IMG/VR virus record: IMGVR_UViG_2690316205_000005
Strand: one strand, 5' to 3'
Length of the DNA stretch: 11,536 nt
DNA from: a virus
Taxonomy: Duplodnaviria > Heunggongvirae > Uroviricota > Caudoviricetes
Position 1 is the stretch's first letter, and the number at the start of each line of letters is the position of its first letter. The position numbers were made by a program. This document shows positions 1 through 3,000 of this stretch, one piece after another.

Positions 1-3000
1 CCTCAAAAACACCATCATACACTAAATCAGTAAGTTGGCAGCATCACCAGCCTTCTTGAGGCTACCACCTGTTTTCAGGTGTCATTCAGACGTGATTTGC
101 CCCAGATTGGGAAAGCACGCTTTTTTCTCAGCTATCGTCCTCTTATTTTGCCGTTACATTTCTTTTTGCATTCTAATGATTAATTTACAATAATAATATC
201 GGTAATTATTGAGTAATAATAAATTAATTATTGCAAATGTAATTTAATTCCATCTTCGCGTTATATTCCAATCTTTAATCTCCGCATGGAACAAGTTGCA
301 TGCGTGACTATATTAAGACGACTTATAACCACCAAAACATTTGCTTTGCAAGCAAAAACAGTGACCATTGACTCTAAGAAAATTCCGATCTATTGTTAGG
401 GTCATCAAAGTTACTTAACAGTATTCCGAAATGAAAATACAAAGCAAGCTAATTGTCTTATTAAACATTATTATTGCATTTATATTATTTGAGCTTTTAG
501 CTCAAAAATTTGGTTTGAGTACATTATTTTAAAGCAAGATAAACAATATCGGGCACTCTAGTTTTTATAATTAACAATTAAACGTCCATAAAATGTTATT
601 TACTTTTCTTCGCTATTGTCATATCTTAATATAGTGGCTTACGCCACTCTACTTTCATCACATTTTGTACGTTTATGTACTCGCCATGAAGCTCTTTCAT
701 GGCGATTTTTTATTCTTAATCCAAGAACATACTCCCTACCTATAGCAAAATCACTTTTTTAACAAAAGAATAACGTATTTAGGTAATCATTACGAATTTA
801 CCCTATAGGTGCTACTGGCCATTCAATATCCGGTGCAGTTGATGTATCAACACGGTTCAGCAACACCCGATACTTTTTCCAAGCTTCCAGCAACAAGGTT
901 TCTTTCTCCGTTGCGATCTCCAGATCCACAGCATCCTGAAGCGGCGCTATATGCTCACTGGCTACCTGCATCAGGCTGTTTTTTGTTTCTTCCGCCTCCC
1001 GGATCCGGAACAGTTTTTCTGCTTCCGTATCCTTCACCCAGGCTGTGCCGTTCCACTTCTGAAACTCCCCTTCCGGGGATAACCAGGTGACATTTTCCGG
1101 TAATGAGCCGAGTTCAGAAATAAATAACGCGTCGCCGGAAGCCACGTCATAAACCGTTTTACCCCGATGATCTTCAACGAGATGCCACGATGACTCATCA
1201 CTGTTGAAAACAGCCACGAAACCAGCCGGAATATCTGGCGGTGCAATATCGGTACTGTTTGCAGGCAGACCTGTATGAGGCGGAATATATGCGTCACCTT
1301 CACCAATAAATTCATTAGTTCCGGCCAGCAGGTTATAAATTTTTATGGTCCGTGCTTGTTCACTCATTCTGAATGCCATTATGCGAGCCTCACAATATAG
1401 TTAAATGCGATGTTTTTGACGGTGTTTTCCGCGTTACCAGCAGCGTTAACGGTGATGGTGTGTCCATGTGAACCAATCGCAACAGAGTGCGTATGAGCAC
1501 CAATACCGACAGTATGCGCGTGTGCACCCGCAGATGCTGCTGTGCCGGACAGTGAGTGTGTATGGTTTCCTTCTGAAGATGATTTACCTACCCATTGGGA
1601 GGTGCCACTGGTTAATGAGCCACTGATACCAACCTGATTAGTCCCGCTAACTTGAGTACTCCCTGCCGGAAACATTCCAGTAGGTTGACTCCCGCTATTC
1701 GTTCTGGGCCCAGTCTGACTATGTTGGTGGGCCCCAGCTGAACTTGTAGAGCCGCTCAGACTGTGCGTATGCGCCCCGGTGTTATTCGTGGATTTAGTGC
1801 CGTAATCAAACGACGATGTGGTTTTCGTCCCCAAATCCGTACTGGATGCGCTGGCGCTGTGGGTGTGCGATTTAATGCCATCCTGTTCCTGAGACAATAC
1901 GGCACGACCACTGGCGGGCTTGCCCTTAATCGTCCAGCCACGCATATCAGGGATCACGCCTGACGGATAAGCGGCTGCAAGTTTCGGGTAAGCAGATTTG
2001 TCAAAAGTCTGCCCCTGCATCAGGGCATAACCAGACGGAACGGTATCTGATGGCCACGGGATTGGTGCACCGACTGGATAAAACTCTGCAGGAGGATGAG
2101 CCGAGGTGTAAAGCTGCGCCCACGGCGACCAGTTTGCGTCGGTCGTATCCCGTCGTGAACGAATAAATGCCGGAGCATGAGCACCGCTTGTACCACTCCA
2201 GCCGATGAGTAACTCACCTTCGCCAACGGCTGTCATCCCTTTCAGGTGAATGATATTTCCATACGCTGTTGGATATCCGTTGTTATACACCTCGTATAAC
2301 TCAAGACCTGCTGCCCCCTGCGTATTGTCTGTCAGCGCGGCTACCCGACCTTTTGAAGCCAGATTAACTGATGATACTGCTGTTCCACCTGACGGTAGCG
2401 CCCCGATCTCTGATGCCGTTGGCTTATTTCTGGAGTTATAGTCCCTTCGCCAGCCAGGTGAATAATCTGTTCCGTGATTAATATAGGTAAACTGGGCGTT
2501 GGTTGTTCCGCCACCGCTGGATGTGGTCGGAGTGGTAATGCGGATCGTCATCGCTGACTTTATCCCCATTACTTCAATGACAGCTCCGGCGAGATGAATA
2601 TTACCGCAGCCAGTATCAGTAATGATTTTATTATTGCCATAAGACCAGGAACCCTTGCACATCCAGTATGGATGGTTAAATGCTCCCTGAGAATCCAGCC
2701 ACTCGATAAACTGTGCAGTCGTCCAGTTTCCTGTTGTTGTGCTTACTGACCCACCGAAGGCACGGCAGGCACCAATATTTTTCGTAAAGGTGTCTTTGCC
2801 AGGGATATCCGCACCGTTCTGATCTTTCTGCAGACGTTTCTCAGCATTGTCATTGGCTGCTTTTACTGCCTTTGGCGTTGCCGCCAGCGTTTCAGACGTG
2901 CTGTTGGTCGCGCTGCTTAGCTGGATTATCCCTTTCTGTGCTGTCGTTGCATCCTGTGCGGTGTATTTCCCGTTAGCCAGGTCATACGCGGCCTTAACGG

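What the first reader, a model, noticed from the sequence alone, without database searches (positions are those of the whole stretch)
368..711. Possible small-protein module: candidate promoter, 33-aa hydrophobic peptide ORF and strong terminator on the plus strand
A consensus-like promoter (TTGACT, 17 bp, TATTGT at 368-396) is followed by ORF 431-532 encoding MKIQSKLIVLLNIIIAFILFELLAQKFGLSTLF, which has a basic N-terminus and one transmembrane-length hydrophobic stretch, and then a perfect 10-bp-stem terminator at 681-711. Size and hydropathy resemble type I toxins and other small membrane proteins, and such modules are frequent prophage morons. Against this, there is no clear Shine-Dalgarno sequence and AT-rich DNA readily yields Ile/Leu/Phe/Lys-rich ORFs by chance.
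Basis: inference. Interest (0 to 1): 0.45.

Follow-up and report, generated by a model that had tools for sequence, protein, structure and literature searches.

The report
Phage-borne YncL-like small membrane protein gene
The 33-codon reading frame is almost certainly a real, unannotated gene for a tiny membrane protein: a diverged phage-carried copy of the E. coli stress protein YncL, with its own promoter and terminator, found next to the tail-fibre genes of prophages in about 15% of complete E. coli genomes.

Summary
All three features sit at the stated coordinates: promoter-like TTGACT-17-TATTGT (368-396), a 33-codon ORF (431-532) and a strong intrinsic terminator (stem 681-705, T run 706-711). 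Promoter and ORF alone are no more than AT-rich DNA gives by chance. The comparative evidence decides it. All 80 copies I could read (phages, IMG/VR, metagenomes, E. coli chromosomes) keep the frame. An allele only about 80% identical in DNA keeps start, stop and length, with 10 synonymous against 7 non-synonymous differences (dN/dS about 0.1; permutation p = 0.00025). Every other small ORF nearby is broken in that allele except one, which shows no coding signature. The peptide matches the NCBIfam profile for YncL (E 1.3e-5; 39% identity to K-12 YncL; shuffled controls negative), but scores below the curated cut-off, so PGAP never annotates it. yncL itself is core, so this is an extra, mobile paralogue. 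The cassette is 25-32% G+C, always lies just downstream of a tail-fibre assembly gene, and occurs in three prophage contexts. That is the definition of a moron. I found no support for a type I toxin-antitoxin pair. The last 73 nt of the 3' UTR are far better conserved than their flanks, which is unexplained. Expression and function are untested.

The parts
252..797 (+). AT-rich cassette (25-32% G+C). It is shared by all genomic contexts and always abuts the stop codon of the tail-fibre assembly gene tfa (798-1379, minus strand).
   Evidence: Homology to the other contexts begins at about window 220 (L021 type) or 252 (A36 type) and runs to 800.
368..396 (+). Sigma-70-type promoter-like site TTGACT-17-TATTGT, with C directly upstream of the -10 hexamer. 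The inferred transcription start is near 403.
   Evidence: 9 of 12 matches. The site is 90% identical in the 80%-diverged allele, with the -35 hexamer invariant and the -10 reading TATCGT, while its flanks are 67% and 71% identical. The transcription start is inferred, not shown.
403..430 (+). Inferred 28-nt AU-rich leader without a Shine-Dalgarno sequence.
   Evidence: Anti-SD duplex is -0.4 kcal/mol in the window allele and +0.1 in the GF50 allele, against -7.2 for K-12 yncL.
431..532 (+). 33-codon gene (stop included) for a YncL-like single-span membrane peptide, MKIQSKLIVLLNIIIAFILFELLAQKFGLSTLF.
   Evidence: ORF. Intact in 56 + 24 copies. dN/dS 0.04-0.11. Permutation p = 0.00025 and 0.019. 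NCBIfam YncL E 1.3e-5. BLASTP against K-12 YncL gives 11/28 identical, E 2e-7. Shuffle controls are negative.
533..632 (+). Poorly conserved part of the 3' UTR, with indels in the diverged allele.
   Evidence: 533-592 is 58% identical with 8 gap columns, and 593-632 is 80% identical, window against GF50 type.
633..648 (+). Conserved stem-loop AGUGGC-UUAC-GCCACU. It marks the 5' edge of the conserved 3' block.
   Evidence: Fold; dG -8.4. The only changes seen in the three allele types are C638U, which turns a C-G pair into U-G, and C642U in the loop.
649..680 (+). Conserved linker, largely unpaired (a weak 4-bp helix at 667-680 is predicted): CUCUACUUUCAUCACAUUUUGUACGUUUAUGUAC.
   Evidence: One variable site (661 C/U) distinguishes the three allele types, although neighbouring DNA is 58-80% identical. 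Predicted mostly single-stranded.
681..711 (+). Rho-independent terminator: stem 681-705 and T run 706-711.
   Evidence: G691A turns the G-U pair into A-U. In the A36 and GF50 alleles the outer pair is lost (A705C) and the tail reads UUUCUU.

Best explanation
This is a prophage 'moron': a self-contained promoter-gene-terminator cassette. It lies just downstream of the tail-fibre assembly gene and is transcribed in the opposite direction to the late operon. It encodes a 33-residue single-span inner-membrane peptide that is a diverged, mobile paralogue of the core E. coli small stress protein YncL. The proposed working is as follows. A transcript of about 310 nt starts near 403 from the conserved TTGACT/TATTGT promoter and ends at the 681-711 terminator. 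The AU-rich leader has no Shine-Dalgarno sequence, so initiation would be SD-independent. The peptide then inserts into the inner membrane through residues 7-23. By analogy with YncL, it would modulate membrane energetics (mild depolarisation, metabolic slowdown and stress tolerance) as a lysogenic-conversion function for the host or prophage. Shown here: the sequence features, purifying selection on the protein, homology to YncL, the distribution and the moron-like context. Inferred: the transcription start, translation without an SD, membrane insertion and the physiological effect.
For: (1) Coding. The frame is intact in all 80 copies read, which carry only 4 peptide variants. Window against the 80%-identical GF50 allele gives 10 synonymous and 7 non-synonymous differences (dS 0.85, dN 0.09, dN/dS 0.11). 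Against the A36 allele it gives 4-5 synonymous and 1 non-synonymous (dN/dS about 0.05). Substitutions by codon position are 7:1:9. Random placement of the same substitutions keeps the frame open with no more than the observed number of amino-acid changes with p = 0.00025 and 0.019. The other five frames show no such bias. Every other small ORF in the region is broken in the GF50 allele, except a minus-strand ORF whose changes are all non-synonymous. (2) Homology. NCBIfam NF000537 YncL matches at E 1.3e-5 over residues 1-28 of a 30-position profile, for both alleles. BLASTP against K-12 YncL gives 39% identity, ungapped, E 2e-7. The ungapped BLOSUM62 score is 60, against 20 +/- 4 for 20000 shuffles. 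Ten shuffled peptides hit nothing. Eight of the 11 positions identical to YncL (N12, A16, L19, F20, L22, F27, G28; position 26 is K versus R) are invariant among the phage alleles, whereas the allele-variable positions 15, 17, 18, 21, 24 and 30 also differ from YncL. (3) Transcription unit. The promoter block is 90% conserved against 67-71% in its flanks, and the terminator exceeds chance. (4) Moron context. G+C is 25-32% against about 50% in the tail genes. The cassette is present in 828 of 5426 complete E. coli genomes, with up to 4 copies per genome, and in 4 records from 3 cultured lambdoid phages. It always sits next to tfa, in three different settings: an att-lambda prophage with an AraC-family regulator, a Qin-like prophage at ydfJ, and a sitABCD-adjacent prophage. 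yncL itself is core, in 5412 of 5426 genomes. (5) Function by analogy. YncL is an inner-membrane protein induced by heat, minimal medium and stationary phase. Its production causes sublethal depolarisation, nucleoid condensation and the phage-shock response (PMC12542507). Salmonella yncL is a small sigma-S-dependent transcript that was first catalogued as the sRNA STnc1110 (PMC5437024).
Against: There is no Shine-Dalgarno sequence in any allele, unlike K-12 yncL. There are no transcript, ribosome-profiling or proteomic data. The promoter match is only 9 of 12, and such matches are not enriched in this DNA. The YncL profile score (25 and 23.5 bits) is below NCBI's curated cut-off of 35. Diversity is small: three DNA allele types, all from E. 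coli, and nothing in 185,579 species-representative genomes. The dN/dS estimates therefore rest on 6-17 substitutions. One frameshifted 43-aa variant exists in the protein collection. The function of YncL itself is unknown, and its reported effects come from plasmid expression.
Confidence: 0.72

Rival explanations
1. Type I toxin-antitoxin module. The 33-aa peptide would be a membrane-damaging toxin whose translation is held off by an antisense RNA, or by a 5'-3' fold-back of its own mRNA as in hok.
For: The peptide is small and hydrophobic with a basic N-terminus. A weak minus-strand promoter-like site (ATGACA-18-TAACAT, 622 to 593) would give an RNA antisense to the 3' UTR and ORF. RNAalifold predicts a long-range helix pairing the leader and AUG (418-437) with 604-619, with one compensatory and two wobble changes. 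The YncL relative depolarises membranes when produced (PMC12542507).
Against: There is no similarity to Hok, Ldr, Ibs, ShoB, TisB, Zor or DinQ models in NCBIfam, Pfam or PADLOC. Rfam finds no RNA here, whereas it readily finds sok in a neighbouring prophage region. No minus-strand terminator is present, and the minus-strand promoter hexamers are not well conserved. Four to five of the 15 long-range pairs are broken in the diverged allele, and the covariation term gives no support (+0.22). No inverted repeat links the leader to a nearby divergent gene, as it does in tisB/istR-type systems. YncL, the only relative, is not part of a TA pair.
Confidence: 0.1
2. Dual-function locus. Besides encoding the peptide, the conserved last 80 nt or so (633-711) would act as an RNA, for example a 3'-UTR-derived or separately transcribed Hfq-type sRNA whose largely unpaired 32-nt stretch base-pairs with host or phage mRNAs. 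This adds to the best explanation rather than excluding it.
For: 633-705 is 95% identical between alleles whose flanks are 58-80% (left) and 70% (right) identical and whose ORF has dS of about 0.85. The conservation starts exactly at the foot of a stem-loop. The architecture is 5' hairpin, U-rich linker, then terminator with a U tail; z = -7.3 against shuffles. The few changes keep the pairs (C-G to U-G, G-U to A-U) or fall in a loop. The block always travels with the ORF, 827 against 828 genomes.
Against: No Rfam family matches. No promoter passes the scan upstream of 633; TTTACT-17-TATCTT scores 8 of 12 and is weaker in the diverged allele. The U tail is interrupted (UUUCUU) in two of the three allele types. 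Recombination breakpoints are evident right at about 700-710, because the A36-type copies L037 and L050 differ downstream. A short gene-conversion patch could therefore mimic selection. With three alleles there is no true covariation.
Confidence: 0.2
3. Chance ORF in AT-rich, H-NS-type spacer DNA. The promoter-like and terminator-like sequences would be incidental, or the hairpin would merely stabilise the 3' end of the convergent late (tail) transcript.
For: ORFs of 20-52 codons are common here (12 in 800 nt). Promoter-like hits are not enriched. There is no SD. RefSeq annotates nothing here in more than 800 genomes, and the phage records annotate different tiny ORFs.
Against: The synonymous bias and frame retention are specific to this frame. 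The match to YncL is significant and independent of composition. The terminator works only on the + strand and exceeds chance.
Confidence: 0.05

Closest known systems
YncL (b4598; NCBIfam NF000537, 'stress response membrane protein YncL'), a 31-aa E. coli/Salmonella inner-membrane protein
   Same: The two align over residues 1-28 without gaps at 39% identity. Shared positions are M1, S5, V9, L10, N12, A16, L19, F20, L22, F27 and G28, with K/R at positions 6 and 26. Both are about 31-33 aa, with a short polar N-terminus, one transmembrane stretch starting at residue 7 and a C-terminal (K/R)FG motif. Both are made from a small stand-alone transcript; Salmonella yncL was first listed as the sRNA STnc1110 (PMC5437024).
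   Different: The score is below the curated family cut-off (25 against 35 bits). The gene is carried on prophages beside tfa rather than at the core patD-yncL-ortT locus. It is present in 15% of genomes, in addition to the core gene found in 99.7%. It has no Shine-Dalgarno sequence where yncL has AAAGGTGG. It has a 180-nt 3' UTR with a conserved terminal block. Its tail is two residues longer (LSTLF against WFI).
Lambdoid phage morons such as lambda lom and bor, HK97 gp15 and phi80/N15 cor (from my own knowledge of Juhala/Hendrix 2000 and Cumby 2012)
   Same: It is an extra gene with its own promoter and terminator, placed among or after the tail genes. Its base composition differs from its neighbours, it is variably present among related phages, and it would be expressed from the prophage. 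Several of these genes encode membrane proteins, and some sit next to tail-fibre genes and block superinfection.
   Different: No sequence similarity to any of them (PHROGs: no hit). It is far smaller, at 33 aa. Its relative is a host core gene, not a phage family.
Type I toxins of E. coli (Hok, Ldr, Ibs, ShoB, TisB, ZorO, DinQ)
   Same: Size, hydrophobicity and a single predicted helix. A relative (YncL) depolarises the membrane when produced (PMC12542507).
   Different: No family match and no detectable antitoxin RNA. The YncL effects reported are sublethal.
YohP and other small stress-induced membrane proteins (Hemm et al. 2008 and 2010, as cited in PMC12542507)
   Same: They belong to the same class: single-span peptides under 50 aa that are missed by annotation, with a depolarisation and metabolic-silencing phenotype on production.
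   Different: No sequence relationship to YohP. Those genes are chromosomal.

Membership tests
YncL family (NCBIfam NF000537, equivalog) | Profile score at or above the curated cut-off (35 bits) | tested here: not met
   25.0 bits (window allele) and 23.5 bits (GF50 allele). It therefore does not qualify as the YncL equivalog, which is why PGAP leaves it unannotated.
YncL family (NCBIfam NF000537, equivalog) | Statistically significant, composition-independent similarity to YncL over nearly the full length (homology) | tested here: met
   hmmscan E 1.3e-5 and 3.7e-5 over 1-28 of 30 positions. BLASTP E 2e-7, 11/28 identical, no gaps. 0 of 20000 shuffles reach the score. 0 of 10 shuffled peptides hit any NCBIfam model.
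YncL family (NCBIfam NF000537, equivalog) | Peptide of about 31 aa with one transmembrane segment | tested here: met
   33 aa. The best 17-aa hydropathy window starts at residue 7 in both proteins (2.94 against 2.34).
YncL family (NCBIfam NF000537, equivalog) | Core chromosomal locus between patD and ortT | tested here: not met
   K-12 locus. This gene lies beside prophage tfa in three other contexts.
YncL family (NCBIfam NF000537, equivalog) | Stress, stationary-phase or sigma-S induction; inner-membrane location; depolarisation on production | not testable with these tools
   These properties are known for YncL from PMC12542507 and PMC5437024. The only hint here is a C directly upstream of the -10 hexamer, which is a sigma-S-favoured feature (my own knowledge).
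Phage moron | Extra gene inside a prophage, variably present among otherwise related phages | tested here: met
   828 of 5426 genomes. Present in mEp332, PhiR70_1 and ev099. Three contexts, always downstream of tfa. Absent from the K-12 Qin locus as annotated (my own knowledge of K-12).
Phage moron | Own promoter and factor-independent terminator flanking the gene | tested here: met
   In silico only. The promoter-like site is conserved. The terminator is stronger than chance.
Phage moron | Base composition distinct from neighbouring phage genes | tested here: met
   25-32% G+C against about 50%.
Phage moron | Expression from the repressed prophage | not testable with these tools
   Needs RNA-seq or Northern blots of a lysogen.
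Type I toxin-antitoxin system | Membership of a known toxin family | tested here: not met
   No toxin model hit in NCBIfam, Pfam or PADLOC.
Type I toxin-antitoxin system | Antisense or divergent sRNA antitoxin complementary to the toxin mRNA | tested here: inconclusive
   There is only a 9-of-12 minus-strand promoter-like site at 622-593, with no terminator. There is no Rfam hit. No inverted repeat involves the leader. An unannotated antisense RNA cannot be excluded from sequence alone.
Type I toxin-antitoxin system | Toxicity of the peptide on expression | not testable with these tools
   Requires inducible expression.
Hfq-type or 3'-UTR-derived sRNA | Terminator hairpin with a U tail, preceded by a conserved unpaired seed | tested here: inconclusive
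   The architecture is present and conserved. However, the U tail is interrupted in 2 of 3 allele types, there is no covariation, a recombination patch is not excluded, and there is no Rfam family.

The most novel reading that the evidence does not exclude
The cassette could be a two-in-one regulator. Its mRNA would encode a YncL-like membrane peptide, and its unusually conserved 3' end (633-711: hairpin, 32-nt largely unpaired stretch, terminator) would be released or separately made as a phage-borne base-pairing sRNA acting on host transcripts. Alternatively, that 3' end could gate translation of the SD-less ORF through long-range pairing with the leader and AUG. Either way, a prophage would be using a copy of a host stress micro-protein together with an RNA regulator to reprogramme the lysogen.
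Probability: 0.15. Interest if true: 0.65.

Novelty: new member of a known kind. Interest (0 to 1): 0.45.

Why it matters
YncL is one of the founding examples of small stress-induced membrane proteins in E. coli, and its function is still unknown. This work points to a second, phage-mobilised lineage under strong purifying selection, present in about one in seven complete E. coli genomes and missing from RefSeq annotation. That matters in three ways. First, it gives a natural comparison that singles out the residues under constraint: N12, A16, L19-F20, L22 and the (K/R)FG motif. Second, it suggests that the YncL activity is useful enough for phages to carry it, whether through stress tolerance of the lysogen or through changes in membrane energetics that could affect superinfection. 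Third, it shows a concrete annotation gap for genes below the curated cut-off that lack a Shine-Dalgarno sequence. It is an extension of known biology, not a new kind of system.

Tried and rejected
(2) An exhaustive phmmer search of 1.84 billion representatives found only the peptide itself and one frameshifted variant, so no wider family can be seen from a single sequence. (3) The 17-nt DNA pattern for the ORF start was too unspecific. The longer patterns recovered the same 45-48 IMG/VR contigs. (4) The species-representative genomes gave 0 hits with a peptide-degenerate pattern and 5 chance hits in unrelated phyla with a pattern from the 3' element. The metagenome scan added 24 copies but no new allele. 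(5) Rfam found nothing in 50-797, even at E <= 1. (6) Pfam and PADLOC gave no hit, and PHROGs gave only a non-significant one for the GF50 allele (E 0.59). (7) Full-text searches for the peptide and for DNA or RNA strings of the 3' element found nothing relevant. (8) The minus-strand 24-aa ORF inside the 3' element (626-700) was considered as the reason for that block's conservation. I rejected it because all four differences are non-synonymous, it lies inside the terminator hairpin, and it has no SD. (9) The long-range 5'-3' helix was tested on the alignment and left as inconclusive. (10) The idea that the adjacent AraC-family regulator is a functional partner was rejected, because the cassette also occurs without it in the Qin-like and sit contexts.
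Full report
**Where the window comes from**

The window is the right-hand end of a lambda-like E. coli prophage. On the minus strand it carries the end of the tape-measure gene, then M, L, K, I, J, lom, a 1029-aa side tail fibre (1379-4468) and the tail-fibre assembly gene tfa (798-1379). Bases 1-48 are the terminal inverted repeat of an IS1. That IS1 is also present in strain 2009C-3133 but absent from other relatives.

In uninterrupted relatives the prophage sits at att-lambda beside ybhB and bioA. There, tfa is followed by about 1.5 kb of AT-rich DNA and an AraC-family regulator gene. 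The finding lies in this AT-rich stretch, which is 25-32% G+C against about 50% in the tail genes.

**Check of the observation**

- **Promoter-like site:** TTGACT-17-TATTGT at 368-396, with 9 of 12 consensus matches.
- **ORF:** 431-532, encoding MKIQSKLIVLLNIIIAFILFELLAQKFGLSTLF.
- **Terminator:** stem 681-705 (10 perfect pairs plus a G-U pair, dG -14.4 kcal/mol) followed by six T at 706-711.

Promoter-like hits are no more frequent here than in shuffles. ORFs of this size are also common in the region, with 12 of at least 20 aa in 800 nt. Neither feature is significant on its own.

The terminator is significant. A comparable stem plus T run turned up in only 9 of 2000 random sequences of the same composition. 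It is oriented for the + strand only.

There is no Shine-Dalgarno sequence. The best anti-SD duplex is -0.4 kcal/mol, against -7.2 for K-12 yncL.

**Is the ORF a gene?**

The region is found in 828 of 5426 complete E. coli genomes, with up to four copies per genome. It is also in four phage records from three cultured lambdoid phages: mEp332, PhiR70_1 and ev099. It occurs in 49 IMG/VR contigs and 24 metagenome contigs.

RefSeq annotates nothing there. The phage records call other tiny ORFs, not this one.

I could read 80 copies: 56 (34 distinct sequences). All 80 keep the 33-codon frame. Only four peptide variants occur.

The copies fall into three DNA allele types:

| Allele type | Identity to window over 360-720 | Peptide changes |
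|---|---|---|
| Window type | reference | none (one copy has I18V) |
| A36 type | about 95% | A24D |
| GF50 type | about 80% | V9I, I15F, F17L, E21K, S30Y |

The GF50 type is the informative one.
- It keeps the ATG, the TAA and the length.
- It differs by 17 substitutions, distributed 7:1:9 over the three codon positions.
- That corresponds to 10 synonymous and 7 non-synonymous differences (dS 0.85, dN 0.09, dN/dS 0.11).
- The A36 type shows 4-5 synonymous changes and 1 non-synonymous change.

I placed the observed substitutions at random in the ORF. The frame stayed open with no more amino-acid changes than observed in only 0.025% of trials for GF50 and 1.9% for A36.

The other five frames show no such bias. 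All other small ORFs in the region carry stops or frameshifts in the GF50 allele. The one exception is a 24-codon minus-strand ORF inside the highly conserved 3' block, and all of its changes are non-synonymous.

One frameshifted 43-aa variant exists in the protein collection.

**What the peptide is**

Pfam and PADLOC give nothing, and PHROGs gives only a non-significant hit (E 0.59) for the GF50 allele.

NCBIfam matches one model, NF000537, 'stress response membrane protein YncL'. The match has E 1.3e-5 for the window allele and 3.7e-5 for the GF50 allele. It covers residues 1-28 of a 30-position profile.

I translated K-12 yncL from the genome: MNVSSRTVVLINFFAAVGLFTLISMRFGWFI. It aligns without gaps at 11 of 28 identities, E 2e-7.

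Composition does not explain the match.
- The ungapped score is 60, against 20 +/- 4 in 20000 shuffles.
- Ten shuffled peptides hit no NCBIfam model.

Most positions shared with YncL are invariant among the phage alleles: N12, A16, L19, F20, L22, F27 and G28, with K or R at position 26. The exception is V9, which is I in the GF50 type. The positions that vary between alleles (15, 17, 18, 21, 24, 30) are also not shared with YncL.

The score (25 bits) is below NCBI's curated cut-off of 35. It is therefore a diverged homologue, not the YncL equivalog, and that explains why PGAP never names it.

yncL itself is core, present in 5412 of 5426 genomes. Carriers therefore have this gene in addition to yncL.

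**What is known about YncL**

YncL is a 31-aa inner-membrane protein. It is induced in minimal medium, by heat shock and in stationary phase. Producing it causes sublethal membrane depolarisation, nucleoid condensation and the phage-shock response (PMC12542507).

In Salmonella its small sigma-S-dependent transcript was first catalogued as the sRNA STnc1110 (PMC5437024). It is a candidate substrate of the RseP protease (PMC10470546). Its mRNA was found paired with the Rac-prophage sRNA KilS in RIL-seq (PMC8175672).

Its physiological role is still unknown.

**Anatomy of the cassette**

The table compares the window allele with the GF50 allele, segment by segment.

| Segment | Coordinates | Identity |
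|---|---|---|
| Upstream | 300-367 | 67% |
| Promoter | 368-396 | 90% (-35 invariant) |
| Leader | 397-430 | 71% |
| ORF | 431-532 | 81% |
| First part of 3' UTR | 533-592 | 58%, with indels |
| Second part of 3' UTR | 593-632 | 80% |
| Last part of 3' UTR | 633-705 | 95% |
| Terminator to tfa | 706-797 | 70% |

The promoter, the non-synonymous sites of the ORF and the 3' end are the three conservation peaks.

The cassette always lies directly downstream of a tfa gene, in three different settings:
- the att-lambda prophage with the AraC-family regulator;
- a Qin-like prophage at ydfJ;
- a prophage next to sitABCD.

Homology between these contexts starts at about window 220-252. In the Qin-like context and in one of the sit-adjacent copies (GF50, L006), a remnant of a second tfa 3' end lies just upstream.

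A low-G+C extra gene with its own promoter and terminator, variably present among related phages, is the textbook definition of a moron (my own knowledge of Juhala/Hendrix).

**The conserved 3' end**

Bases 633-711 fold into three parts: a 6-bp stem-loop (633-648), a 32-nt largely unpaired stretch (649-680) and the terminator. The z-score is -7.3 against shuffles.

The few changes preserve pairing (C-G to U-G, G-U to A-U) or fall in the loop. This block never occurs without the ORF: 827 genomes against 828.

The architecture is what one expects of an Hfq-type or 3'-UTR-derived sRNA. Several points weaken that reading.
- Rfam has no match.
- No promoter passes the scan upstream of 633.
- The U tail is interrupted in two of the three allele types.
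- Recombination breakpoints are evident at about 700-710, so a short conversion patch could imitate selection.

RNAalifold also proposes pairing of the leader and AUG (418-437) with 604-619. That helix has one compensatory change but four to five broken pairs in the diverged allele. I leave both ideas open as minority readings.

**Type I toxin-antitoxin reading**

Nothing specific supports it.
- No toxin family matches.
- Rfam finds no antitoxin here, although it readily finds sok in a neighbouring prophage region.
- The only minus-strand signal is a weak 9-of-12 promoter-like site with no terminator.
- No inverted repeat links the leader to a divergent gene.

The resemblance is generic: small, hydrophobic and possibly depolarising.

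**Verdict**

The feature is a real, unannotated, phage-borne paralogue of yncL packaged as a moron.

How it most likely works is partly inference. A transcript of about 310 nt would be translated without an SD into a single-span inner-membrane peptide. By analogy with YncL, the peptide would modulate membrane energetics and stress physiology of the lysogen.

The limits are these. There are no expression data and only three allele types. The family is restricted to E. coli, with nothing in the species representatives. The function of the parent family is itself unknown.

It is a new member of a known kind and of moderate interest. The most novel reading still open is a dual peptide-plus-sRNA function.

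Noticed in passing
window 1-48: This is the terminal inverted repeat of an IS1 (...GGCAGCATCACC). The same insertion, with an IS1A transposase gene, is in strain 2009C-3133. It is absent from TUM9757 and from phages mEp332, ev099 and PhiR70_1. It separates the cassette from the rest of the 1.5-kb AT-rich spacer and from an AraC-family regulator gene that lies beyond the window.
   Followed up: yes
window 6475-6541: A run of 67 N sits inside the J (central tail fibre) gene. J therefore appears as two ORFs in different frames (6445-8766 and 5114-6388). The flanks encode a repeated [17 protein letters not shown] motif. The apparent split cannot be interpreted, because it may be masking or an assembly gap.
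   Followed up: partly
window 4561-5043 (minus strand): lom is read as 160 aa against a 199-position profile. The typical C-terminus (...GVGYKF) continues in another frame. This is either a frameshift near the 3' end (pseudogene) or a sequencing error.
   Followed up: partly
window 838-1036 (minus strand): A full-length Rfam IS009 match (218 bits) lies entirely inside the tfa coding region. The same match is seen in three related loci. It looks like a 'family' built on conserved coding sequence rather than an independent RNA.
   Followed up: no
window 294-318 and 624-648: An imperfect inverted repeat (19 of 25, with a perfect 12-mer ACTATATTAAGA / TCTTAATATAGT) brackets the promoter, the ORF and most of the 3' UTR. 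Its right arm overlaps the first conserved stem-loop. The right arm is degraded in the GF50 allele (9 of 12). It could be chance (roughly 0.1 such 12-mers expected) or a relic of the cassette's origin. It remains unexplained.
   Followed up: partly
window 626-700 (minus strand): A 24-codon ORF (MKELHGEYINVQNVMKVEWRKPLY) inside the conserved 3' block stays open in all alleles. All of its differences are non-synonymous, and it starts inside the terminator hairpin. It is probably a by-product of nucleotide conservation.
   Followed up: yes
L158 5485-5572; L006 2245-2344: In the Qin-like prophage (CP53) and in one sit-adjacent prophage (GF50), a remnant of a second tfa 3' end (...AWKKYRVLL...IEWPAVPVG) lies just upstream of the cassette, in the same orientation as the intact tfa downstream. 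This suggests the cassette moves by recombination between tfa genes.
   Followed up: partly
protein P0003 (not in the window): A 43-aa variant (MKIQSKLIVLLNIIIAFILFELLAQKIWFEYIILKQDKQYRAL) is identical to the peptide through residue 26, then diverges. That pattern is consistent with a 1-nt frameshift near the A5/T3 run at codons 25-27. It is the only disrupted allele met, and it could be a sequencing error.
   Followed up: no
L001 2500-3243; L004 1500-2243 (outside the window): An AraC-family regulator gene sits at the prophage end, next to attR and the bioA side. Between it and tfa lies an unusually long (about 1.5 kb) AT-rich region with no annotation. This recalls the prophage-encoded AraC-like regulators of pathogenic E. 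coli (my own knowledge). It is not linked to the cassette in the other contexts.
   Followed up: no
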